Virus genome (UHGV): UHGV-0344337
Length of the DNA stretch: 25,896 nt
Origin: a virus
Direction: 5' to 3' (one strand)
In this document: positions 35 to 25,896 of the stretch, piece after piece
How positions within the stretch are numbered: the stretch's first letter is position 1
Layout: each line of letters opens with the position of its first letter
The notes under the pieces: generated by a model
Database searches by the model: none
Seen by the model: the letters and a program-made list of their open reading frames with translations, nothing else
Told to the model about the DNA's origin: nothing
Program-made: the position numbers and the translations under genes

Positions 35-1084
35 GTGCGGGTATTACTTAGACCTGTTCTGGTGCCTGAGCTTGGGCTGGTGGTCCTTAAGCCGGGCCGT
101 GAATCCATACAGATATTTCATAATCCTCGAGTGCTGGTGGAACCGGAACCAAAAAGCATGCGTAATCTGCCATCCGGAGTCGTTCCTGCCGTTGGCCAGC
201 CGCTGGCGGAAGACAAAACATTGCTGCCGTTTTTTAGTAACGAACGGGTGATTCGTGCTGCTGGCGGCGTTGGCTTATTGTCTGACTGGCTATTACGTCA
301 TGTTACATCCTGCCAGTGGCCTTATGGCGATTACCATCACACTGAAACAGTCATTCACCGTTATGGTACCGGCGCAATGGTGTTGTGTTGGCACTGCGAC
401 AACCAACTGCGTGACCAGACATCGGAATCACTGGAGCTGCTTGCTCAACAAAATCTGACAGCATGGGTGATTGACGTCATCCGTCACGCAATAAGCGGTA
501 CGCAGGAGCGGGAATTATCTTTGGCTGAATTATCCTGGTGGGCGGTCTGCAATCAGGTGGTGGATGCACTACCTGAGGCTGTATCGCGTCGTTCGCTGGG
601 ATTACCAGCGGAAAAAATCTGCTCGGTGTACCGCGAAAGCGACATCGTACCGGGAGAGCAGACCGCCACCAGCATATTGAAACAACGCACAAAAAATCTT
701 GCACCGTTGCCTTACGCCCACCAGCAACAAAAACTACCACAGGAAAAGACGGTGGTAAGCATCACCGTTGATCCAGAGTCTCCGGAATCTTTCATGAAGC
801 TGCCTAAACGTCGCCGCTGGGTTAAGGAGAAATACACACGTTGGGTTAAGACACAGCCGTGTGCTTGCTGCGGTATGCCAGCCGACGATCCGCATCATCT
901 GATTGGTCACGGGCAGGGCGGAATGGGAACAAAAGCACATGATCTCTTTGTGTTGCCTTTGTGCAGAAAGCATCACAACGAGCTGCATACGGATACAGTG
1001 GCATTTGAAGAGAAGTATGGCTCCCAACTGGAGCTGATATTTCGTTTTATCGATCGCGCGCTGGCAATTGGCGTACTGGCGTAA
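35..1084 (+). CDS. ydfU: DUF968-family prophage protein (YdfU-like) with C-terminal HNH-like Cys/His cluster
   Basis: 349-aa ORF with GTG start at 35 preceded by GGAGG (26-30). C-terminal cluster CACCG...DPHHLIGH...CRKHHNELH. Sits immediately upstream of Q as in Qin-type prophages. Family assignment is from memory. Confidence 0.65.
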   Translation: MRVLLRPVLVPELGLVVLKPGRESIQIFHNPRVLVEPEPKSMRNLPSGVVPAVGQPLAEDKTLLPFFSNERVIRAAGGVGLLSDWLLRHVTSCQWPYGDYHHTETVIHRYGTGAMVLCWHCDNQLRDQTSESLELLAQQNLTAWVIDVIRHAISGTQERELSLAELSWWAVCNQVVDALPEAVSRRSLGLPAEKICSVYRESDIVPGEQTATSILKQRTKNLAPLPYAHQQQKLPQEKTVVSITVDPESPESFMKLPKRRRWVKEKYTRWVKTQPCACCGMPADDPHHLIGHGQGGMGTKAHDLFVLPLCRKHHNELHTDTVAFEEKYGSQLELIFRFIDRALAIGVLA

Positions 1085-6559: not shown

Positions 6560-6733
6560 ATGAACATTGAAGAGTTAAAAACAAAAACAGAAGCAGATAT
6601 TTCTGAATATATAACAAAAAAAATCATTGAGCTTAAGAAAAAGACCGGGAAAGAAGTTACCAGTATCCAGTTTACTGCACGGGAAAAAATGACTGGTCTT
6701 GAAAGCTATGATATCAAGATTGATTTAATCTAG
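6560..6733 (+). CDS. gnsB: GnsB (Gns family, 57 aa)
   Basis: MNIEELKTKTEADISEYITKKIIELKKKTGKEVTSIQFTAREKMTGLESYDIKIDLI; GAGGAA RBS at 6551-6556; terminator downstream. Confidence 0.8.
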   Translation: MNIEELKTKTEADISEYITKKIIELKKKTGKEVTSIQFTAREKMTGLESYDIKIDLI

Positions 6734-6796
6734 CATGTTTATAGTATTAGCATCAATTTCTCATCAGATGCTATTCAACAATACAAATTACCCATA

Positions 6797-6818
6797 AACC
6801 TCGTTTTTACGGGGTTTT
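6797..6818 (+). terminator. Rho-independent terminator after gnsB
   Basis: AACCTCG-ttttta-CGGGGTT hairpin (one G-U pair) followed by a T-run. Confidence 0.5.
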
Positions 6819-7028
6819 GTTATATTTAAACATTACCGAATAGATATAAATCTCGATTGTCGATGGTATTGGTTGTGTGACAATACCTAGTCTTTCCGGT
6901 ATGCCTGAAGAGAATACAAACGACAGATTATGTAAGGGAAACGCGCTGAAACTTTCACTCTTTCATGCTGAGTGATTTGACGTTATATTTTTAGCCGCAA
7001 GTGAAGAGCAAACGAATGGAGCGACAAA

Positions 7029-7140
7029 ATGCGTAAAGATCAATACACTGATGCCCCCTCCCAGGAGCAGGTTCGTGTAAAAACTATGCTTAATAGCACC
7101 ATTTCGATGGGTTACCCGGATGTTGTAATTGCATGTATAG
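7029..7140 (+). pseudogene. 5' fragment of a small (68-aa) prophage ORF disrupted by IS3
   Basis: ATG 7029 with GGAG 7 nt upstream; reads [37 protein letters not shown], then runs into the IS3 left end and stops after 13 IS-encoded codons. Confidence 0.5.
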
Positions 7141-7179
7141 TGATCTTACCCAGCAATAGTGGACACGCGGCTAAGTGAG
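7141..7179 (+). repeat. IS3 left terminal inverted repeat
   Basis: TGATCTTACCCAGCAATAGTGGACACGCGGCTAAGTGAG; matches the reverse complement of 8360-8398 with a few mismatches. Confidence 0.9.
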
Positions 7180-7205
7180 TAAACTCTCAGTCAGAGGTGA
7201 CTCAC

Positions 7206-7505
7206 ATGACAAAAACAGTATCAACCAGTAAAAAACCCCGTAAACAGCATTCGCCTGAATTTCGCAGTGAAGCCCTGAAGCTTGCTGAACGCATCGGTGT
7301 TACTGCCGCAGCCCGTGAACTCAGCCTGTATGAATCACAGCTCTACAACTGGCGCAGTAAACAGCAAAATCAGCAGACGTCTTCTGAACGTGAACTGGAG
7401 ATGTCTACCGAGATTGCACGTCTCAAACGCCAGCTGGCAGAACGGGATGAAGAGCTGGCTATCCTCCAAAAGGCCGCGACATACTTCGCGAAGCGCCTGA
7501 AATGA
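7206..7505 (+). CDS. insE: IS3 transposase OrfA (InsE)
   Basis: 99 aa [32 protein letters not shown]...; HTH region; overlaps insF by 4 nt as in IS3-family orfA/orfB. Confidence 0.95.
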
Positions 7506-8368
7506 AGTATGTCTTTATTGAAAAACATCAGGCTGAGTTCAGCATCAAAGCAATGTGCCGCGTGCTCCGGGTGGCCCGCAGCGGCTGGTATACGTGGTGT
7601 CAGCGGCGGACAAGGATAAGCACGCGTCAGCAGTTCCGCCAACACTGCGACAGCGTTGTCCTCGCGGCTTTTACCCGGTCAAAACAGCGTTACGGTGCCC
7701 CACGCCTGACGGATGAACTGCGTGCTCAGGGTTACCCCTTTAACGTAAAAACCGTGGCGGCAAGCCTGCGCCGTCAGGGACTGAGGGCAAAGGCCTCCCG
7801 GAAGTTCAGCCCGGTCAGCTACCGCGCACACGGCCTGCCTGTGTCAGAAAATCTGTTGGAGCAGGATTTTTACGCCAGTGGCCCGAACCAGAAGTGGGCA
7901 GGAGACATCACGTACTTACGTACAGATGAAGGCTGGCTGTATCTGGCAGTGGTCATTGACCTGTGGTCACGTGCCGTTATTGGCTGGTCAATGTCGCCAC
8001 GCATGACGGCGCAACTGGCCTGCGATGCCCTGCAGATGGCGCTGTGGCGGCGTAAGAGGCCCCGGAACGTTATCGTTCACACGGACCGTGGAGGCCAGTA
8101 CTGTTCAGCAGATTATCAGGCGCAACTGAAGCGGCATAATCTGCGTGGAAGTATGAGCGCAAAAGGTTGCTGCTACGATAATGCCTGCGTGGAAAGCTTC
8201 TTTCATTCGCTGAAAGTGGAATGTATCCATGGAGAACACTTTATCAGCCGGGAAATAATGCGGGCAACGGTGTTTAATTATATCGAATGTGATTACAATC
8301 GGTGGCGGCGGCACAGTTGGTGTGGCGGCCTCAGTCCGGAACAATTTGAAAACAAGAACCTCGCTTAG
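7502..8368 (+). CDS. insF: IS3 transposase OrfB (InsF), DDE integrase domain
   Basis: 288 aa [22 protein letters not shown]...; DDE-type catalytic core; in the -1 frame relative to insE, the arrangement IS3-family elements express by programmed frameshifting. Confidence 0.95.
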
Positions 8369-8398
8369 GCCTGTGTCCATATTACGTGGGTAGGATCA
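8360..8398 (-). repeat. IS3 right terminal inverted repeat
   Basis: Reverse complement TGATCCTACCCACGTAATATGGACACAGGCCTAAGCGAG; overlaps the 3' end of insF. Confidence 0.9.
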
Positions 8399-8400
8399 TA

Positions 8401-8496
8401 GAACATCAAGTATCTCTGGAAGCATTCAGGGCAATTGAGGCCGCGTTAGTAAAGCACGATAAGAATACGAAGGATTATTCCCTGGTGGTTGACTGA
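8401..8496 (+). pseudogene. 3' fragment of the IS3-disrupted small ORF
   Basis: Joining 7029-7140 to 8402-8496 after removing IS3 and one TAG copy restores an uninterrupted 68-codon frame (...[34 protein letters not shown]). Confidence 0.5.
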
Positions 8497-8532
8497 TCAC
8501 CATAACTGCTAACCATTCTGACCATTTCACAA

Positions 8533-8561
8533 GTGACAGAGTCAATATCGTATTCTGTCAC
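8533..8561. repeat. Perfect 8-bp inverted repeat GTGACAGA / TCTGTCAC with 13-bp spacer
   Basis: Read directly from the sequence; lies in non-coding DNA between the IS3-disrupted ORF and the cos region. Confidence 0.4.
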
Positions 8562-8861
8562 TGTAAGGCTAATACAGTACTGCAATTCAACTACAGCAAT
8601 GCCTCGTATTTAGGTGAATTTACAATATCGTCCAGTTCGGATGCCGGCTGCATTTCTGAAGATAAGGCATTTCGGTTCGCGTATTTTCCCCTCATGCTCG
8701 TCAGTCCTGCGCGTAGTAAGAAACAGGACACTCACACTAATTTGTGTGGGCATGCTGTGATGTCCTTCTGAATTATCCCCATGCCATTATGTAACGCTCT
8801 GTTTCAGATGCTCGTCACGGTTGTCAGGCTGTCGGGTCCTCCCAGTGGGGGTCCCTGCCAC

Positions 8862-8879
8862 GGGGCGGGAGCGTCGCGG
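8862..8879 (+). other. Candidate cosN (cohesive-end site), lambda-like
   Basis: ACGGGGCGGGAGCGTCGCGG resembles lambda cosN (ACGGGGCGGCGACCTCGCGG) including the flanking ACG and CGCGG; the putative 12-nt end GGGCGGGAGCGT starts 196 bp upstream of the Nu1 ATG, matching lambda geometry. Confidence 0.5.
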
Positions 8880-9058
8880 AAAAAGACTAGTTTTTGCATT
8901 TCCATGGCGGCGGCAGCATGTTTGGTAATTTATTGATAATTAAAAGTTATTTCTCTTTTCACCTGTACAATATTTTTTTCTCCCTGTCATTAGACCAGTT
9001 TGCAATTAATTGAAATATATAAATAAACCTGATTTTCACCTGCCAGATGGAGTTGCTT

Positions 9059-9586
9059 ATGTCAAATGTGAGCGGGATCGGTGATGCTTATTACTGGAGT
9101 GTTTTTAAAATCGCCGAGGCCTTTGGGCTTCACCGGGACACAGTAAAAAAACGGCTCCTCGCGGCCAACACTCCTGTGGCTGCGACTGTCAGGGGGAACC
9201 CCGTTTACGCCCTGCAGCATGTCGGGCCCGCCCTGTTTAGTGTGAAGCATGAGGCAGCAGACTCTGTTCATGATCCATCCCGTATGGAGCCGAAAGAGAG
9301 AAAGGACTGGTACCAGTCTGAAAATGAAAGGATCAAGCTGGAAAAGGAGCAGCGAAAACTCATCCCAGTTGATGAAGTAGTCATCGTCTATTCGTCCATG
9401 AGAAAGGCTGTCGTCCAGGTTCTGGAGACAATTCCGGATGTTCTTGAACGCGATTGCGCCCTGACTCCTCAGGCCGTCGGCGTTGTACAGCAGGCCATTG
9501 ATGACCTGCGATACACTCTTCAGGAAAAATCCTACGAGGCTTGTGCTGCTGAATTAATTCCTGATGAGGAAGGAGAGAGTCTCTAG
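9059..9586 (+). CDS. Nu1: Terminase small subunit (Nu1-like)
   Basis: About 175 aa with N-terminal HTH-like segment (YYWSVFKIAEAFGLHRDTVKKRL); GGAG 7 nt upstream of ATG 9059 (ORF opens at 9047); immediately upstream of the large terminase. Confidence 0.8.
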   Translation: MSNVSGIGDAYYWSVFKIAEAFGLHRDTVKKRLLAANTPVAATVRGNPVYALQHVGPALFSVKHEAADSVHDPSRMEPKERKDWYQSENERIKLEKEQRKLIPVDEVVIVYSSMRKAVVQVLETIPDVLERDCALTPQAVGVVQQAIDDLRYTLQEKSYEACAAELIPDEEGESL

Positions 9587-11694: not shown

Positions 11695-11903
11695 ATCAGA
11701 ATGATATTGAAGCCATGATTCAGCGTTATACGGAAGCTGAAATGGCGGTGTTGGACGGAAAATCCGTCACTTTTAATGGTCAGCAGATGACCATGGAAAA
11801 CTTATCTGAGATCCGGCAGGGGCGGCAGGAGTGGGAGCGCCGCCTTGCGGCTCTGATTACACGACGACGGGGGCATCCCGGGTACCGGCTGGCGAGGTTC
11901 TGA
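11691..11903 (+). CDS. W: Head-tail joining protein gpW-like
   Basis: About 70 aa (MNQNDIEAMIQRYTEAEMAVLDGKSVTFNGQQ...); ATGA overlap with the terminase stop; GGAGG RBS. Confidence 0.8.
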   Translation: MNQNDIEAMIQRYTEAEMAVLDGKSVTFNGQQMTMENLSEIRQGRQEWERRLAALITRRRGHPGYRLARF

Positions 11904-13411
11904 TGGCAATTCTTGATGATGTGATTGGCGTTTTTTCACCAGGATGGAAAGCGGCAAGGCTGCGTTCCCGTGCGGTGATCCAGGCTTATGAGGCCGTAAA
12001 AACGACGCGGACACACAAAGCCCGACGGGAGAGCCGAACTGCCGACCAGTTAAGCCAGTACGGGGCCGTGTCGTTACGTGAGCAGGCCCGTTACCTTGAT
12101 AACAACCACGATCTGGTCATTGGTGTATTTGACAAGCTGGAAGAACGGGTGGTGGGGAAAAACGGGATTATTGTCGAGCCACATCCGGTATTACGCAATG
12201 GGGCCATTGCCCGTGATCTGGCAGCGGAGATACGTACCCGATGGAGTGAATGGTCTGTCAGTCCGGAGGTCACCGGGCAGTTTACCCGTCCGATGCTGGA
12301 ACGTCTGATGCTGCGTACCTGGCTGCGCGATGGTGAGGTGTTTGCCCAGATGGTTTCCGGGCGCATAAACAGCCTGACGCCTTCTGCCGGTGTTCATTTC
12401 TGGCTGGAGGCGCTCGAGCCGGACTTTATTCCCATGACCAGTGATGAGAGCAACAGGCTGAATCAGGGCGTGTTTGTTGATGACTGGGGGCGTCCCGAAA
12501 AATATCTGGTGTATAAAAGCCGTCCCGTATCCGGGCGGCAGATGGAAACCAAAGAAGTGGATGCAGAGCGAATGCTGCATCTTAAATTTGTTCGCCGTCT
12601 GCACCAGATGCGCGGGACGTCTTTGTTGTCCGGTGTGCTGATCCGCCTCAGTGCTCTGAAAGAGTATGAAGATTCTGAGCTGACTGCAGCAAGGATCGCC
12701 GCTGCTCTGGGGATGTACATCCGGAAAGGCGACGGACAGAGCTATGAAACGGATGGTAATGACAGCAAGGAGAATGAACGCGAGCTTACCATTCAGCCAG
12801 GCATTATTTACGACGATCTGAAACCCGGCGAAGAAATCGGAATGGTGAAGTCGGATCGCCCCAATCCTAACCTTGAAACTTTTCGTAATGGTCAGTTGCG
12901 TGCCGTGGCTGCGGGCAGTCGTCTGAGTTTTTCCAGTACAGCGCGCAACTATAACGGCACTTACAGCGCCCAGCGTCAGGAGCTGGTTGAATCTACTGAT
13001 GGCTACCTGATCCTGCAGGACTGGTTTATTGGTGCCGTCACCCGCCCGATGTACCGTGCCTGGCTGAAACAGGCTGTGGCATCCGGTGTTATCAGGCTAC
13101 CCCGCGATCTGGACCGATCTTCACTGTATACCGCGGTGTATTCCGGACCGGTGATGCCGTGGATTGACCCTGTTAAGGAGGCTGAGGCCTGGAAAATTCA
13201 GATTCGTGGTGGAGCGGCGACAGAATCAGACTGGGTACGTGCAGGTGGTCGTAATCCAGATGATGTCAAACGTCGGCGCAAGGCCGAAATTGATGAAAAC
13301 CGCAAGCTGGATCTGGTATTTGATACCGATCCGGCCAGTGATAAAGGAGGCAGCAGTGCCGCAACGAAACGACAGGAGCCGCAGCACACCGACGACCAGT
13401 CCGAAGAATAA
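11903..13411 (+). CDS. B: Portal protein (lambda gpB family)
   Basis: 502 aa from ATG 11903 (TGATG overlap with W), starting MAILDDVIGVFSPGWKAARLR; size and position typical of a lambda-family portal. Confidence 0.9.
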   Translation: MAILDDVIGVFSPGWKAARLRSRAVIQAYEAVKTTRTHKARRESRTADQLSQYGAVSLREQARYLDNNHDLVIGVFDKLEERVVGKNGIIVEPHPVLRNGAIARDLAAEIRTRWSEWSVSPEVTGQFTRPMLERLMLRTWLRDGEVFAQMVSGRINSLTPSAGVHFWLEALEPDFIPMTSDESNRLNQGVFVDDWGRPEKYLVYKSRPVSGRQMETKEVDAERMLHLKFVRRLHQMRGTSLLSGVLIRLSALKEYEDSELTAARIAAALGMYIRKGDGQSYETDGNDSKENERELTIQPGIIYDDLKPGEEIGMVKSDRPNPNLETFRNGQLRAVAAGSRLSFSSTARNYNGTYSAQRQELVESTDGYLILQDWFIGAVTRPMYRAWLKQAVASGVIRLPRDLDRSSLYTAVYSGPVMPWIDPVKEAEAWKIQIRGGAATESDWVRAGGRNPDDVKRRRKAEIDENRKLDLVFDTDPASDKGGSSAATKRQEPQHTDDQSEE

Positions 13412-13424
13412 TTCCTGGTTCAGG

Positions 13425-15383
13425 ATGCAGGCAGGTCACCAGAGTGACGCGGATATTTATATTTATGACGAGATTGGTTTCTGGGGTGTTACGGCGAAGC
13501 AGTTTATCAGTGATCTGAATGCACTGGGCGATATCACCCACATTAATCTCCATATTAATTCACCGGGTGGCGATGTCTTTGAAGGCATCGCCATTTTTAA
13601 TGCACTGAAAACACATGGTGCGTCCATTACCGTTTATGTCGACGGTGTGGCGGCGTCAATGGCGTCGGTCATTGCGATGGTGGGAAACCCGGTCATTATG
13701 CCGGAAAACTCCTTCATGATGATTCATAAACCATTTGGCTTTACGGGCGGTGATGCGGAGGACATGCGCACCTATGCCGACCTGCTCGATAAAGTTGAGG
13801 CGGTTCTGTTACCCGCTTATGCACAGAAAACCGGGAAAACCACCGATGAAATTGCTGCCATGCTGGCGGATGAGACCTGGATGTCCGGTGCCGAATGTCT
13901 GGCACAGGGATTTGCTGATCAGGTGACACCAGCCGTTAAGGCAATGGCATGTATTCAGTCAAAACGTACAGAGGAATTTAAAAAGATGCCGGAATCCATT
14001 CGAAATATGATTACTCCGCCACGCAACAGTGCTCCACGCGTACAGGATGATGGACCTGCAGCCTCCCGGACGCCAGTGCAGGCAGCAGCACCCGTGGTGG
14101 ATGAAAACAGCATCCGTGCGCAGGTCCTGGCAGAGCAAAAAGCGCGTGTAAACGGTATTAATGATCTGTTTGCCATGTTTGGCGGGCGTTATCAGTCGTT
14201 GCAGGCTCAGTGTCTTGCCGATCCTGAATGTTCGCTGGAGCAGGCCCGCGAAAAGCTGTTGAACGAGATGGGGCGCGAGTCCACGCCATCCAATAAAAAT
14301 ACCCCGGCTCATATTTATGCCGGTAACGGTAATTTTGTGGGGGACGGGATCCGCCAGGCGCTGATGGCGCGCGCCGGGTTTGAAAAAACTGAACGTGATA
14401 ATGTCTACAACGGGATGACCCTGCGTGAATATGCCCGTATGTCACTGACTGAACGTGGTATTGGTGTTTCCAGTTATAACCCGATGCAGATGGTCGGTGC
14501 GGCGTTCACACACAGTACGTCTGACTTCGGTAATATTCTGCTGGATGTTGCGAACAAAGCCATTCTGCAGGGCTGGGAAGATGCCCCTGAAACCTATGAA
14601 CAGTGGACGCGGAAAGGTCAGTTGTCTGATTTTAAAATTGCCCATCGTGTGGGTATGGGGGGCTTCAGTGCTCTGCGTCAGGTGCGTGAAGGGGCAGAAT
14701 ATAAATACGTCACCACCGGAGATAAACAGGCCACTATTGCACTGGCGACCTATGGCGAGCTGTTCAGTATCACCCGTCAGGCCATTATCAATGATGATCT
14801 GAATATGCTGACCGATGTCCCGATGAAGCTGGGCCGTGCGGCGAAATCCACTATTGCCGATCTGGTTTATGCCATTCTGACGTCTAACCCGAAAATCTCC
14901 ACAGATAATGTAAGTCTGTTCGATAAAGCGAAACATGCAAACGTACTGGAGAGCGCGGCAATGGACGTGGCATCGCTGGATAAAGCCCGCCAGTTGATGC
15001 GCGTTCAGAAAGAGGGTGAGCGTCATCTGAATATTCGTCCTGCGTTCGTACTGGTACCGACGGCGATGGAGTCTGTTGCTAACCAGGTCATTCGCTCCTC
15101 AAGTGTCAAGGGGGCTGACATTAACGCCGGTATTATTAACCCGGTGAAAGATTTTGCGACCGTTATTGCAGAGCCTCGTCTTGATGATAACAGCCAGACC
15201 ACCTTCTACCTGGCTGCGTCCAAAGGCTCCGATACGATTGAAGTGGCTTATCTCAACGGTGTGGATACGCCATATATTGATCAGATGGAGGGCTTCAGTG
15301 TGGATGGCGTGACAACGAAAGTGCGTATTGACGCTGGTGTTGCGCCAGTTGATCACCGCGGCCTGGTGAAATGTACGGCGTAA
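13425..15383 (+). CDS. Prohead protease (ClpP/S14-like) fused to scaffold/major capsid domain
   Basis: 652 aa from ATG 13425 (frame is open from 13164). N-terminal ClpP-like motifs (GVAASMASVIA with candidate Ser, MIHKPFG with candidate His); long C-terminal region in the major-capsid position. Resembles the protease-scaffold-capsid fusion I recall for Gifsy-2-type heads. Confidence 0.75.
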   Translation: MQAGHQSDADIYIYDEIGFWGVTAKQFISDLNALGDITHINLHINSPGGDVFEGIAIFNALKTHGASITVYVDGVAASMASVIAMVGNPVIMPENSFMMIHKPFGFTGGDAEDMRTYADLLDKVEAVLLPAYAQKTGKTTDEIAAMLADETWMSGAECLAQGFADQVTPAVKAMACIQSKRTEEFKKMPESIRNMITPPRNSAPRVQDDGPAASRTPVQAAAPVVDENSIRAQVLAEQKARVNGINDLFAMFGGRYQSLQAQCLADPECSLEQAREKLLNEMGRESTPSNKNTPAHIYAGNGNFVGDGIRQALMARAGFEKTERDNVYNGMTLREYARMSLTERGIGVSSYNPMQMVGAAFTHSTSDFGNILLDVANKAILQGWEDAPETYEQWTRKGQLSDFKIAHRVGMGGFSALRQVREGAEYKYVTTGDKQATIALATYGELFSITRQAIINDDLNMLTDVPMKLGRAAKSTIADLVYAILTSNPKISTDNVSLFDKAKHANVLESAAMDVASLDKARQLMRVQKEGERHLNIRPAFVLVPTAMESVANQVIRSSSVKGADINAGIINPVKDFATVIAEPRLDDNSQTTFYLAASKGSDTIEVAYLNGVDTPYIDQMEGFSVDGVTTKVRIDAGVAPVDHRGLVKCTA

Positions 15384-15406: not shown

Positions 15407-15427
15407 GGCCCGTAAGGGCTTTTTTTG
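15407..15427 (+). terminator. Weak rho-independent terminator/attenuator after the capsid gene
   Basis: GGCCC-gtaa-GGGC hairpin followed by TTTTTTT, 24 nt after the capsid stop. Confidence 0.4.
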
Positions 15428-15469
15428 TACCTGAAATCAGCCCCTGAACGGGGCTGTGCGGAGACAGTT

Positions 15470-15793
15470 ATGGCAAAGAATTTTGTAGAAGAAGGAAAAA
15501 CGGTGGCGATTGTTGCCAGTGCAGCCATCAGCAGCGGAGATCTGGTGCAGGTGGGGGATGTTTTTGCGGTGGCGCTGACCGATATTCCACAGGGAGAAAC
15601 AGGCGACGGCATAACCGAAGGTGTGTTTATGCTGCCTAAGCTGAAAACGGATGACATGAAAACGGGTAAGAAGGTTTATCTGAAGTCAGGAAAAGTTCAG
15701 CTGACTAACAGCGGCTCTGAGCCGCTGGTCGGGGTTGTCTGGGCAGATGCCGGAACCAGTGCAGAAGAAGTGCCGGTAAAACTCAATGTCTGA
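15470..15793 (+). CDS. Putative head decoration / capsid accessory protein
   Basis: 107 aa from ATG 15470 (MAKNFVEEGKTVAIV...); Gly/Val-rich, beta-rich composition; assigned by position only. Confidence 0.45.
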   Translation: MAKNFVEEGKTVAIVASAAISSGDLVQVGDVFAVALTDIPQGETGDGITEGVFMLPKLKTDDMKTGKKVYLKSGKVQLTNSGSEPLVGVVWADAGTSAEEVPVKLNV

Positions 15794-24015: not shown

Positions 24016-25896
24016 ATGGGTAAAGGCAGCAGTAAGGGGCATACTCCGCGCGAAGCGAAGGACAACCTGAAGTCCACGCAGTTGCTGAGTGTGATCGATG
24101 CCATCAGCGAAGGGCCGATTGAAGGTCCGGTGGATGGATTAAAAAGCGTGCTGCTGAACAGTACGCCGGTGCTGGACAGTGAGGGGAATACCAATATATT
24201 CGGCGTCACGGTGGTGTTCCGGGCCGGTGAGCAGGAGCAGACACCGCCGGAGGGATTTGAATCCTCCGGCTCCGAGACGGTGCTGGGTACGGAAGTGAAA
24301 TATGACACGCCGATCACCCGCACCATCACGTCGGCAAACATCGACCGTCTGCGCTTTACCTTCGGTGTGCAGGCACTGGTGGAAACCACCTCAAAGGGGG
24401 ACAGGAATCCATCGGAAGTCCGCCTGCTGGTTCAGATACAGCGTAACGGTGGCTGGGTGACGGAAAAAGACATCACCATTAAGGGCAAAACCACCTCGCA
24501 GTATCTGGCCTCGGTGGTGGTGGATAACCTGCCGCCGCGCCCGTTTAATATCCGGATGCGCAGGATGACGCCGGACAGCACCACAGACCAGCTGCAGAAC
24601 AAAACGCTCTGGTCGTCATACACCGAAATCATCGATGTGAAACAGTGCTACCCGAACACGGCACTGGTTGGCGTGCAGGTGGACTCGGAGCAGTTCGGCA
24701 GCCAGCAGGTGAGCCGTAATTATCATCTTCGCGGGCGCATTCTGCAGGTGCCGTCGAACTATAACCCGCAGACGCGGCAATACAGCGGTATCTGGGACGG
24801 AACGTTTAAGCCAGCATACAGCAACAACATGGCCTGGTGTCTGTGGGATATGCTGACCCATCCGCGCTACGGCATGGGGAAACGTCTTGGTGCGGCGGAT
24901 GTGGATAAATGGGCGCTGTATGTCATCGGCCAGAATTGCGACCAGTCAGTGCCGGACGGCTTTGGCGGCACGGAGCCGCGCATCACCTGTAATGCGTACC
25001 TGACCACACAGCGCAAGGCGTGGGATGTGCTCAGTGATTTCTGCTCGGCGATGCGCTGTATGCCGGTATGGAACGGGCAGACGCTGACGTTCGTGCAGGA
25101 CCGACAGTCGGATAAGGTGTGGACCTATAACCGCAGTAATGTGGTGATGCCGGATGATGGCGCGCCGTTCCGCTACAGCTTCAGCGCCCTGAAAGACCGC
25201 CATAATGCCGTTGAGGTGAACTGGATTGACCCGGATAACGGCTGGGAGACGGCGACAGAGCTTGTGGAGGACACGCAGGCCATTGCCCGTTACGGTCGTA
25301 ACGTCACGAAGATGGATGCCTTTGGCTGTACCAGCCGGGGGCAGGCACACCGCGCCGGGCTGTGGCTGATTAAAACGGAGCTGCTGGAAACGCAGACCGT
25401 GGACTTCAGCGTGGGTGCAGAAGGGCTTCGCCATGTACCGGGCGATGTCATTGAAATCTGTGATGATGACTATGCGGGGATCAGCATCGGCGGGCGCGTG
25501 CTGGCGGTGAACAACCAGACGCGGACACTGACGCTCGACCGTGAAATCACGCTGCCATCCTCCGGCACCACGCTGATAAGCCTGGCTGACGGACAGGGGA
25601 ATCCGGTCAGCGTGGAGGTCCAGTCCGTCACCGACGGCGTGAAGGTAAAAGTGAGCCGTGTTCCTGACGGCGTTGCAGAATACAGCGTGTGGGGGCTGAA
25701 GTTGCCAACGTTGCGCCAGCGCCTGTTCCGCTGTGTGAGTATCCGTGAGAACGATGACGGCACGTATGCCATCACTGCCGTGCAGCATGTACCGGAGAAA
25801 GAGGCCATCGTGGATAACGGGGCGCACTTTGACGGCGACCAGAGCGGCACGGTGAATGGTGTCACGCCGCCAGCGGTGCAGCACCTGACTGCCGAA
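24016..25896 (+). CDS. J: Tail tip / central fibre protein gpJ-like, 5' partial (runs off window end)
   Basis: ATG 24016 with AGGA upstream; frame open to the window end (627 codons); N-terminus MGKGSSKGHTPREAKDNLKSTQLLSVIDAISEGPIEGPVDG as recalled for lambda J. Confidence 0.9.
   Translation, partial: MGKGSSKGHTPREAKDNLKSTQLLSVIDAISEGPIEGPVDGLKSVLLNSTPVLDSEGNTNIFGVTVVFRAGEQEQTPPEGFESSGSETVLGTEVKYDTPITRTITSANIDRLRFTFGVQALVETTSKGDRNPSEVRLLVQIQRNGGWVTEKDITIKGKTTSQYLASVVVDNLPPRPFNIRMRRMTPDSTTDQLQNKTLWSSYTEIIDVKQCYPNTALVGVQVDSEQFGSQQVSRNYHLRGRILQVPSNYNPQTRQYSGIWDGTFKPAYSNNMAWCLWDMLTHPRYGMGKRLGAADVDKWALYVIGQNCDQSVPDGFGGTEPRITCNAYLTTQRKAWDVLSDFCSAMRCMPVWNGQTLTFVQDRQSDKVWTYNRSNVVMPDDGAPFRYSFSALKDRHNAVEVNWIDPDNGWETATELVEDTQAIARYGRNVTKMDAFGCTSRGQAHRAGLWLIKTELLETQTVDFSVGAEGLRHVPGDVIEICDDDYAGISIGGRVLAVNNQTRTLTLDREITLPSSGTTLISLADGQGNPVSVEVQSVTDGVKVKVSRVPDGVAEYSVWGLKLPTLRQRLFRCVSIRENDDGTYAITAVQHVPEKEAIVDNGAHFDGDQSGTVNGVTPPAVQHLTAE

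What the first reader, a model, noticed from the sequence alone, without database searches (positions are those of the whole stretch)
13425..15383. Single 652-aa gene combining a ClpP-like prohead protease with the capsid-position domain
The N-terminal 170 aa carry ClpP/S14-like motifs (GVAASMASVIA, MIHKPFG) and the remaining 480 aa occupy the scaffold/major-capsid position. There is no separate lambda-type C, Nu3 or E gene between portal and decoration-like gene. This implies a self-processing polyprotein head, an architecture I recall for Gifsy-2-type prophages and distinct from lambda despite lambda-like tail genes.
Basis: partly seen in the sequence, partly recalled or inferred. Interest (0 to 1): 0.5.

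Follow-up and report, generated by a model that had tools for sequence, protein, structure and literature searches.

The report
Gifsy-2-type fused protease–capsid head gene
This is the already described Gifsy-2-type phage head gene, common in E. coli prophages, in which a ClpP-like maturation protease, a scaffold segment and the HK97-fold major capsid protein share one reading frame; the only new point is a conserved internal ribosome-binding site that probably also yields a protease-free capsid precursor.

Summary
One open reading frame ending at 15383 has an N-terminal ClpP-like serine protease (Pfam E 4.6e-36, Ser-His-Asp triad invariant). It also has a roughly 115-residue linker and helical segment with no known family, and a C-terminal major capsid domain. 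A confident AlphaFold model of that domain (pLDDT 90) matches only HK97-fold capsids and encapsulins. No other capsid, C, Nu3 or E-like gene lies in the window.

The gene is not new. It scores 984 bits against NCBIfam NF045540, [quoted passage not shown]. It is 100% identical to phage mEp460_ev081 and matches 2125 of 5426 complete E. coli genomes. It is 70% identical over its full length to the Gifsy-2 "tripartite capsid gene" (Effantin 2010).

Two refinements:
- The true start is probably GTG 13356, giving 675 aa, not ATG 13425.
- An invariant in-frame ATG at 13986, just after the protease, is preceded by a conserved Shine-Dalgarno core. This holds in 33 of 33 lineages against a 5% background, with wobble-position evidence.

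The second point suggests a nested 465-aa scaffold-plus-capsid product, as with lambda C/Nu3. I found no description of it, but could not read the Gifsy-2 paper. Interest is low.

The parts
13344..13350 (+). Shine-Dalgarno sequence AAGGAGG, 5 nt before the probable true start codon
   Evidence: Duplex with the 16S rRNA 3' end is -11.6 kcal/mol, the strongest in the frame. Equivalent strong sites lie about 20-30 codons upstream of the conserved Trp in most lineages.
13356..15383 (+). Full-length gene: ClpP-like protease, linker and scaffold-like segment, HK97-fold major capsid protein. 675 aa, 73.4 kDa. Overlaps the portal gene end by 56 nt.
   Evidence: NCBIfam NF045540 scores 984 bits against a cut-off of 475. 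PGAP uses this start. 70% identical to the Gifsy-2 protein. Masses.
13425..13427 (+).
   Evidence: No Shine-Dalgarno sequence (-2.2 kcal/mol). The residue is Ile, Leu or Phe in many homologues, and the conserved S-W-[F/Y] lies upstream.
13413..13943 (+). ClpP-like (peptidase S14) prohead protease domain. Catalytic Ser at 13656-13658, His at 13725-13727, Asp at 13917-13919.
   Evidence: Pfam PF00574 covers aa 23-168 of the 652-aa version (E 4.6e-36). NF045542 'head maturation protease, ClpP-related' scores 217 bits. The alignment to solved ClpP places Ser, His and Asp on the ClpP triad. All three are invariant in 12 homologues down to 58% identity.
13971..13975 (+). Internal Shine-Dalgarno core GAGGA, 10 nt before the in-frame ATG
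   Evidence: A core of AGGA, GGAG or GAGG is present at -17..-5 in 33 of 33 clusters (<80% identity), against 5% of codons in general. The E/Q/K codon that supplies 'AG' always ends in G, although the gene-wide G-ending fraction is 0.18-0.83.
13986..15383 (+). Proposed nested in-frame product: linker, scaffold-like segment and capsid protein, without the protease. 465 aa, 50.6 kDa. Starts Met-Pro.
   Evidence: The ATG is invariant in the Gifsy-2/mEp460/MD8 clade. Among distinct sequences, Met at this column goes with an SD core in 52 of 53, and any other residue in 1 of 42. Phage S1 gp8, in which Pfam finds no ClpP domain, also has AGGAG 6 nt before an internal Met-Pro. This is an inference; no protein data were available.
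13986..14099 (+). Pro/Ala/Thr/Gln-rich linker, predicted disordered and poorly conserved
   Evidence: AlphaFold2 pLDDT is about 50-60 for residues 1-38 of the 465-aa product. Length and sequence vary in the alignment.
14103..14279 (+). Three-helix segment in the scaffold (delta-domain or Nu3) position
   Evidence: Confident helices at residues 40-63, 70-78 and 84-98 (pLDDT 95-98). No Pfam family. The match to lambda Nu3 is weak and not significant (hhalign E 0.17). The scaffolding role is inferred from position and from the Gifsy-2 and MD8 literature.
14280..14333 (+). Low-confidence hinge (…TPSNKNTPAHIYAGNGNF…), a candidate region for the maturation cleavage
   Evidence: pLDDT falls to about 58 for residues 101-110 between two confident domains. 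The cleavage site itself was not determined.
14334..15380 (+). HK97-fold major capsid protein domain (349 aa, 38.1 kDa), with spine helix at residues 272-300 of the 465-aa product
11903..13411 (+). Lambda-family portal gene immediately upstream
   Evidence: PF05136 E 7.2e-82. 64% identical to the Gifsy-2 portal, with the alignment starting at Met 25 of the longest ORF. Matches the mEp460_ev081 annotation.
15470..15793 (+). Head decoration (cement) gene immediately downstream
   Evidence: PF09956 Phage_cement_2 E 4.2e-20. PHROG_122 'head decoration'. 62% identical to the Gifsy-2 homologue.

Best explanation
The gene is a member of the known Gifsy-2-type 'tripartite' head gene family. One reading frame (13356-15383) encodes, in order, a ClpP-like serine protease, a flexible linker with a small helical scaffold-like segment, and the HK97-fold major capsid protein.

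The capsid part assembles on the portal into a T=7 procapsid, with the N-terminal parts pointing inward. The protease then removes itself and the scaffold segment. The shell expands on DNA packaging and is stabilised by trimers of the downstream decoration protein.

I add two points.
- Translation most likely begins at GTG 13356.
- The gene most likely gives two primary products. One is the full-length 73-kDa protein. The other is a nested 51-kDa protein that starts at ATG 13986 and lacks the protease.

The nested product would co-assemble with the full-length one through the shared capsid part. Only a fraction of subunits would then carry a protease into the shell, as with lambda C/Nu3 and Mu I/Z.

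Shown here: domain identities, the catalytic triad, the fold, synteny, family membership, and conservation of the internal ribosome-binding site. Inferred: use of the internal start, the ratio of the two products, the scaffolding role, the cleavage site, and T=7 geometry (taken from Gifsy-2).

My confidence is about 0.95 for the identity of the gene and about 0.65 for the nested start.
For: Family membership and distribution:
- NF045540 scores 984 bits against a cut-off of 475.
- RefSeq names the identical gene 'ClpP-like prohead protease/major capsid protein fusion protein'.
- The gene is 100% identical to the one in isolated phage mEp460_ev081 and about 98-99% identical to those in other phage records such as cdtI, Ayreon and phi458.
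- It is 70% identical to Gifsy-2 over the full length, with conserved gene order.

Domains:
- The ClpP domain and triad are supported.
- The HK97 fold is supported.

Literature:
- Gifsy-2 has a trimeric protein at each capsid 3-fold axis (PMC8538268).
- Gifsy-2 is listed as T=7 with a 45.8-kb genome (PMC8814770).
- Pseudomonas phage MD8 gp5 was read in the same tripartite way (PMC8508860).

Nested start:
- An SD core precedes the invariant ATG in 33 of 33 lineages, against a 5% background.
- The residues coded across the core vary (E/Q/K then E/D, once G-D), while AGGA or GGAG is kept and the wobble base is always G. The product of gene-wide expectations is 1e-12, or 1.6e-4 for nine hand-picked, taxonomically spread lineages.
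- Met and the SD core co-occur: 52 of 53 against 1 of 42.
- In lineages without Met at this position, an SD plus ATG lies 10-50 codons further down in 37 of 41 loci. That is 8-fold enriched over the rest of the gene (p 1.5e-21), while ATG density is unchanged.
- The same feature is present in phage S1 gp8, which matches only the NF045541 (not NF045540) type over its C-terminal part and in which Pfam finds no ClpP domain.
- If all 415 subunits were full length, about 14.7 MDa would sit inside the shell. With only the nested product it would be about 5.2 MDa.
Against: - No protein-level data were available for this gene or for Gifsy-2. The primary paper (Effantin 2010) is not in the library, so I do not know whether two products were seen or excluded.
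- The internal SD is only moderate (-6.0 kcal/mol, 10-nt spacer) and is weaker than the one at GTG 13356. The product ratio cannot be predicted.
- Met at the junction occupies a hydrophobic position in a protein motif ([F/Y]-x-x-[M/A/V/I]-P) that is conserved in the wider family. One distant lineage (L121) has Met without an SD.
- The lineages counted are related, so the probabilities overstate independence.
- An IS3 copy upstream (7197-8368) may mean that this particular prophage no longer expresses its late genes.
Confidence: 0.9

Rival explanations
1. Pure polyprotein. Only the full-length 675-aa protein is made. Each of the roughly 415 subunits brings its own protease and scaffold into the procapsid and is trimmed there. 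The internal AGGA...ATG is not used for initiation and might instead be a pause site or a by-product of the residues encoded.
For: The upstream start has the stronger Shine-Dalgarno sequence. The junction Met sits in a protein motif whose hydrophobic position is A, V or I in distant relatives. 14.7 MDa of internal protein is dense but physically possible in a T=7 shell (estimate and my own knowledge of shell size).
Against: A protein-level constraint does not explain several observations. The wobble base is fixed while the residue varies between E, Q and K. AGGAG is kept through a Gly-Asp coding in L079. The core appears almost only where the ATG is present (52 of 53 against 1 of 42). In lineages without that Met, an SD plus ATG reappears further down.
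Confidence: 0.25
2. The C-terminal part is a scaffold rather than the capsid protein, as many GenBank records imply by naming the gene 'protease/scaffold protein', 'Nu3' or 'preconnector protease C'. The real capsid gene would then lie elsewhere in the prophage.
For: Annotations in phage records are inconsistent.
Against: The C-terminal 349 aa fold confidently as HK97 and match only capsid or encapsulin shells in the listed results. They belong to Pfam Phage_capsid_4 and relate to Mu gpT. A profile of homologues hits the solved JBD30 capsid protein. No other gene in the window, in mEp460_ev081 or in Gifsy-2 is annotated or detected as a capsid protein between terminase and tail genes.
Confidence: 0.01
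3. The fusion is an artefact or a pseudogene: two neighbouring genes joined by a frameshift, a lost stop codon or an assembly error in this record.
For: None specific. Long composite ORFs sometimes arise this way.
Against: The same uninterrupted frame is found in 1988 complete E. coli genomes at >=80% coverage. It is present in phage records under isolate names. It occurs in 80 species-level genomes across Gammaproteobacteria at 51-100% identity. The 465-aa scaffold-plus-capsid part matches more than 10,000 clusters of the 50%-identity representative library, and most of the best-scoring members are 620-790 aa with the match in their C-terminal part.
Confidence: 0.01

Closest known systems
Salmonella phage Gifsy-2 tripartite capsid gene (NC_010393, 22471-24561; Effantin et al. 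2010, Virology 402:355)
   Same: 70% identical over the full length. It has the same three parts. It shares the gene order portal, fusion gene, PF09956 decoration gene, then a gene of Pfam family PF13856 ('Gifsy-2'; lambda FII-like), then Z. It has the same internal SD plus ATG (GAGGAG…ATG, -8.8 kcal/mol).
   Different: The linker differs in length and sequence. The host is E. coli rather than Salmonella. Processing and T=7 geometry were studied for Gifsy-2 only, not for this gene.
NCBIfam NF045540 (scaf_prot_MCP1), the family of E. coli, Shigella, Klebsiella and Pseudomonas prophages and phages such as mEp460, cdtI, Stx-converting phages and MD8
   Same: Scores 984 bits against a cut-off of 475, end to end. 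Identical to mEp460_ev081. MD8 gp5 was analysed in the same way in PMC8508860.
   Different: Nothing of substance; it is a typical member.
Phage lambda C / Nu3 / E head genes
   Same: The gene occupies the same position between portal and tail genes. In lambda the protease gene overlaps the portal gene end and contains a nested in-frame start for the scaffold (annotation). The internal start proposed here would work the same way. The lambda C protease is a distant relative (HHpred result reported for MD8 in PMC8508860). Both systems have a trimeric decoration protein.
Phage HK97 gp4 protease and gp5 capsid protein with its delta domain
   Different: The HK97 protease is a separate gene of a different family, as far as I know. 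HK97 stabilises its shell by covalent cross-links rather than a decoration protein. Whether cross-linking residues exist here was not tested.
Stenotrophomonas phage S1 gp8 and NCBIfam NF045541 (scaf_prot_MCP2)
   Same: The scaffold-plus-capsid half is homologous: NF045541 scores 399 bits over aa 197-649, with 36% identity to S1 gp8 over the capsid part (aa 325-650) by tblastn. A decoration gene follows. It has an internal AGGAG plus ATG Met-Pro at the junction.
   Different: The N-terminal domain is not ClpP-like; Pfam finds no CLP_protease match. This protein falls below the NF045541 cut-off of 525 bits.

Membership tests
NCBIfam NF045540, ClpP-like prohead protease/major capsid protein fusion protein | Whole-protein score at or above the curated cut-off (475 bits), with an end-to-end match | tested here: met
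   984 bits. Residues 9-651 match profile positions 2-651 of 652.
Gifsy-2-type tripartite capsid gene | N-terminal ClpP-like protease domain with an intact Ser-His-Asp triad | tested here: met
   PF00574 E 4.6e-36. Ser, His and Asp align to the ClpP triad and are invariant in homologues (S101, H124, D188 in 675-aa numbering).
Gifsy-2-type tripartite capsid gene | Central segment of 100-200 residues with no recognised domain, between protease and capsid parts | tested here: met
   No Pfam match for 13986-14333. AlphaFold2 shows a disordered linker followed by three helices.
Gifsy-2-type tripartite capsid gene | C-terminal HK97-fold major capsid domain in the same reading frame | tested here: met
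Gifsy-2-type tripartite capsid gene | Direct sequence similarity and shared gene order with Gifsy-2 | tested here: met
   70% identity over 663 aligned positions. Portal 64% and decoration protein 62% identical, in the same order.
Gifsy-2-type tripartite capsid gene | Proteolytic release of a mature capsid protein, and a T=7 shell carrying decoration trimers | not testable with these tools
   Known for Gifsy-2 only, through citing papers (PMC8538268, PMC8814770). Requires virion protein analysis and cryo-EM.
Peptidase family S14 (ClpP) | ClpP-type sequence motifs around the catalytic Ser (G-x-A-A-S-M) and His (M-I-H-x-P) | tested here: met
   GVAASMA and MMIHKP are present. The best solved match is ClpP 1y7o (E 8e-16).
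Peptidase family S14 (ClpP) | Membership of cellular ClpP proper (the ATP-dependent protease subunit) | tested here: not met
   Scores against the ClpP equivalog models are far below cut-off (TIGR00493: 60 against 308.6 bits). The phage-specific NF045542 'head maturation protease, ClpP-related' is passed (217 against 120 bits).
HK97-fold capsid proteins, Mu gpT / JBD30 branch | Sequence-level relation to a solved member | tested here: met
HK97-type covalent chainmail | Lys-Asn isopeptide cross-link between subunits | not tested
   The equivalent residues were not mapped. The presence of a decoration gene makes cross-linking unnecessary but does not exclude it.
Nested protease/scaffold gene pairs (lambda C/Nu3, Mu I/Z) | In-frame internal start codon with its own ribosome-binding site downstream of the protease domain | tested here: met
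   GAGGA lies 10 nt before ATG 13986. It is conserved in 33 of 33 lineages against a 5% background and co-occurs with the ATG.
Nested protease/scaffold gene pairs (lambda C/Nu3, Mu I/Z) | Two primary translation products actually made | not testable with these tools
   Needs protein or ribosome-profiling data.
Nested protease/scaffold gene pairs (lambda C/Nu3, Mu I/Z) | Homology of the scaffold segment to lambda Nu3 | tested here: inconclusive
   hhalign E 0.17, probability 0.3%, over 44 columns with a suggestive E-x-x-R-x-x-G-I pattern. The template was a single sequence.

The most novel reading that the evidence does not exclude
Fused protease-scaffold-capsid head genes of the Gifsy-2 type are in fact nested gene pairs. 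A conserved internal ribosome-binding site and ATG just after the protease domain (window 13971-13988) would produce a protease-free scaffold-capsid protein as the main building block. The full-length protein would act as a minor, self-targeting carrier of the protease. The same design appears in distant lineages at shifted positions, and in fusions whose N-terminal domain is not ClpP-like. If so, it is a general solution to protease dosage that has not been described for these genes, at least in the literature I could search.
Probability: 0.4. Interest if true: 0.45.

Novelty: already known. Interest (0 to 1): 0.22.

Why it matters
The fusion itself needs no follow-up. It is curated by NCBI, was described experimentally for Gifsy-2 in 2010, and is present in about 40% of complete E. 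coli genomes.

It has three practical uses:
- Annotation. GenBank phage records name this gene in at least six conflicting ways, and automated capsid finders can miss it. PMC8814770 could not obtain a capsid protein for Gifsy-2.
- The start codon. Phage records and RefSeq disagree by 23 codons, and the evidence here favours the RefSeq start.
- The conserved internal start. If it is used, it explains how a phage that encodes protease and shell protein in one frame avoids loading one protease per subunit. It would extend the lambda C/Nu3 principle to a whole family of head genes and could be tested with simple genetics in mEp460 or Gifsy-2.

Tried and rejected
- A first AlphaFold2 run on the C-terminal 358 aa, with 16 close homologues (73-100% identity), gave a useless model (pLDDT 30.4). 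It was replaced by a run with 137 diverse sequences.
- A single-sequence search of the PDB with the whole protein found only ClpP. The capsid relation needed the C-terminal part alone (E 2.3e-4) and then a profile.
- I looked for natural stand-alone scaffold-plus-capsid genes beginning at the internal Met-Pro. Several database proteins of 443-471 aa begin exactly there. The two whose contigs I fetched sit at contig ends and are truncated fusions. They do not show split genes, although both have GGAG 9-10 nt before that ATG.
- Profile comparison with lambda Nu3 and gpE gave no significant similarity.
- The Effantin 2010 paper and the Casjens & Hendrix lambda review could not be read. Eight literature searches found no mention of an internal start in these genes.
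- The wider alignment showed that the junction Met is not conserved outside the Gifsy-2/mEp460/MD8 clade. That finding prompted the co-occurrence test instead of a claim of universality.
- No tRNA genes and no inverted repeats at the IS ends were detected with the settings used.
Full report
**Observation.** Pfam finds CLP_protease at residues 23-168 (E 4.6e-36) and Phage_capsid_4 (PF25209) at 354-649 (E 6e-55), with a weaker Mu-like gpT match. PHROG_133 matches from end to end. Against solved structures, the N-terminal part matches ClpP chains (best E 8e-16). That alignment places Ser78, His101 and Asp165 on the ClpP catalytic triad. All three residues are invariant in twelve homologues down to 58% identity.

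**Surroundings.** Upstream lie a DUF1441-type small terminase, a lambda gpA-type large terminase, a small W-like gene and a lambda-family portal. Downstream lie a cement/decoration gene (PF09956), a gene of Pfam family PF13856 ('Gifsy-2'; weak FII-like match), then Z, U, V, G, T, H, M, L, K and I homologues. Nothing else in the window resembles a capsid, scaffold or protease gene. The ORFs that overlap the finding on either strand have no family match.

**Is the C-terminal part a capsid protein?**
- The C-terminal 352 residues alone give a weak hit to a solved 'Mu GpT domain' capsid protein (E 2.3e-4).
- A profile of 45 homologues raises this to E 2.6e-10 for 8rkx/8rkc and 4.4e-8 for 9jod.
- A first AlphaFold2 run with a shallow alignment failed (pLDDT 30).
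- A second run on residues 188-652, with 137 sequences of 35-95% identity, gave pLDDT 90.2 and pTM 0.75.
- Foldseek against the PDB returned 355 matches at E <= 0.001. All 50 listed are HK97-fold phage capsid proteins or encapsulins, including HK97 Head II.

The HK97 fold is present and no other capsid gene exists.

**Is it known?** Yes.
- NCBIfam NF045540, named 'ClpP-like prohead protease/major capsid protein fusion protein', scores 984 bits against a cut-off of 475.
- The DNA is 100% identical to phage mEp460_ev081 and 98-99% identical to mEp460, cdtI, Ayreon, phi458 and other phage records.
- It matches 2125 of 5426 complete E. coli genomes, where RefSeq gives it exactly that name.
- It is 70% identical over its full length to the Gifsy-2 gene, with portal (64%) and decoration protein (62%) in the same order.
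[quoted passage not shown] Gifsy-2 capsids carry a trimer at each 3-fold axis (PMC8538268) and are listed as T=7 with a 45.8-kb genome (PMC8814770).
- Pseudomonas phage MD8 gp5 was interpreted as protease plus scaffold plus capsid protein in PMC8508860.
- The 465-aa scaffold-plus-capsid part matches 10,634 clusters at E <= 0.001 in the 50%-identity representative library. Most of the best-scoring members are 620-790 aa, with the match in their C-terminal part.
- Full-length relatives occur in 80 fetched species genomes of Enterobacterales, Pseudomonas, Pasteurellaceae, Shewanella and others.

**Start codon.** The frame is open from 13164. ATG 13425 has no Shine-Dalgarno sequence (-2.2 kcal/mol). 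GTG 13356 has AAGGAGG 5 nt upstream (-11.6). The residues S-W-[F/Y], encoded upstream of 13425, are conserved in all lineages. The residue at the 13425 position is Ile, Leu or Phe in Gifsy-2, Pseudomonas and others. RefSeq uses 13356, while GenBank phage records use 13425. I take 13356-15383 (675 aa, 73.4 kDa) as the gene. It overlaps the portal gene end by 56 nt, much as lambda C overlaps B.

**A conserved internal start.** While scanning in-frame start codons, I found that ATG 13986 (Met188 of the 652-aa version, Met211 of the 675-aa version) is preceded by GAGGA. This ATG lies just after the protease domain.
- The Met is invariant in the Gifsy-2/mEp460/MD8 clade.
- In 57 distinct sequences the two codons four and five positions upstream read xAG-GAx. 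They encode E/Q/K and then E/D.
- In one Haemophilus lineage (L079) the sequence is TTA-GGA-GAC (Leu-Gly-Asp), which still spells AGGAG.
- In 33 of 33 clusters below 80% identity an SD core lies at -17..-5, against 5% of codons elsewhere in the same genes.
- The E/Q/K codon always ends in G, although the gene-wide G-ending fraction ranges from 0.18 to 0.83. The product of expectations is 1e-12 for all 33 clusters and 1.6e-4 for nine hand-picked, taxonomically spread lineages.

The encoded residue changes through its first base while the wobble base stays fixed. That pattern points to a constraint on the nucleotide sequence, not on the protein.

**Control with distant relatives.** I fetched 80 more distant relatives from viral contigs and aligned 150 loci.
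- Where the aligned residue is Met, 52 of 53 distinct sequences have the SD core.
- Where it is A, T, I, L, V, S or a gap, 1 of 42 has it.
- In those non-Met lineages an in-frame ATG with an SD of -5.5 kcal/mol or better lies 10-50 codons further down in 37 of 41 loci.
- That density is 8-fold higher than in the rest of the gene (Fisher p 1.5e-21), while plain ATG density is the same.
- Stenotrophomonas phage S1 gp8 has a homologous scaffold-plus-capsid half but an N-terminal domain that is not ClpP-like. It has AGGAG 6 nt before an internal Met-Pro.
- Two truncated metagenomic relatives (45% identity) have GGAG 9-10 nt before the same Met-Pro.

**Anatomy of the nested product.**
- Residues 1-38: disordered, Pro/Ala/Thr/Gln-rich and poorly conserved.
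- Residues 40-98: three confident helices in the position of a scaffold or delta domain.
- Residues 99-116: a low-confidence hinge.
- Residues 117-465: the capsid fold, with a 29-residue spine helix at 272-300.

The central part has no Pfam family and only a non-significant resemblance to lambda Nu3 (E 0.17).

**Mechanism.** Four steps follow from homology and established phage biology. The capsid parts assemble on the portal into a T=7 procapsid. The ClpP-like protease removes the internal parts. The shell expands during DNA packaging. Decoration trimers then bind.

Two steps are inferred from the conservation found here. Two primary products are made, of 73 and 51 kDa. They co-assemble through the shared capsid part, so that only some subunits carry a protease. 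This is the arrangement of lambda C/Nu3 and Mu I/Z, extended to include the capsid protein.

A rough mass estimate fits this. About 14.7 MDa would lie inside the shell if all 415 subunits were full length, against about 5.2 MDa for the nested product alone.

The ratio of the two products, the cleavage site and actual use of the internal start are not shown. The internal SD is only moderate. The Met occupies a hydrophobic position in a protein motif that is conserved more widely. One distant lineage (L121) has the Met without an SD.

**Novelty and score.** The finding as written is already known and ordinary for E. coli prophages. The start-codon correction is minor. I did not find the nested start in any paper I could search or in the MD8 analysis. 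I could not read the primary Gifsy-2 paper, so I give 0.4 to the reading that it is both real and undescribed. Overall interest is 0.22.

Noticed in passing
window 7197-8368: A copy of IS3 (orfA with HTH_Tnp_1, orfB with an rve integrase core) sits between the lysis/gnsB region and the small terminase gene. Only 6 of 5426 complete E. coli genomes cover at least 80% of window 6700-9100, so this insertion site is rare. It could be polar on late-gene transcription or could separate cos from the packaging genes.
   Followed up: partly
window 13356 versus 13425: RefSeq/PGAP and GenBank phage records disagree on the start of the fusion gene by 23 codons. The Shine-Dalgarno strength and the conservation of upstream residues favour the RefSeq start (GTG 13356).
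   Followed up: yes
window 11831-13411 and 15425-15793: The longest-ORF starts are too far upstream for two neighbours. Homologues and phage records start the portal gene at ATG 11903 and the decoration gene at ATG 15470.
   Followed up: yes
phage records H1-H25: The same gene is named 'Major head protein', 'protease/scaffold protein', 'head maturation protease', 'head-tail preconnector protease C', 'preconnector protein Nu3' and 'Major Capsid Protein' in different GenBank phage records. PMC8814770 reports that it could not obtain an HK97-fold capsid protein for Gifsy-2.
   Followed up: no
loci L088-L165 (viral contigs), about 10-50 codons after the protease/scaffold junction: In distant fused protease-capsid genes that lack the junction Met, an in-frame ATG with a Shine-Dalgarno sequence recurs slightly further downstream, often in an E-x-x-M-[T/P/S] context. 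It is present in 37 of 41 loci and is 8-fold enriched over the rest of the gene.
   Followed up: partly
L005 (Stenotrophomonas phage S1) 2002-3984: gp8 has a scaffold-plus-capsid half homologous to the window gene, but an N-terminal domain of about 200 residues with no Pfam ClpP match. This suggests that the protease has been exchanged in front of a conserved scaffold-capsid module.
   Followed up: partly
window 35-1084: A 349-aa DUF968/HNH-like protein (PHROG_96) lies immediately upstream of the Q-like antiterminator (1068-1850). I did not examine it further.
   Followed up: no
window 24946-25884 (- strand): A 312-aa ORF on the minus strand at the right end of the window has no PHROG or Pfam match. 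It probably overlaps the start of the J-like tail tip gene on the + strand and may be spurious.
   Followed up: no
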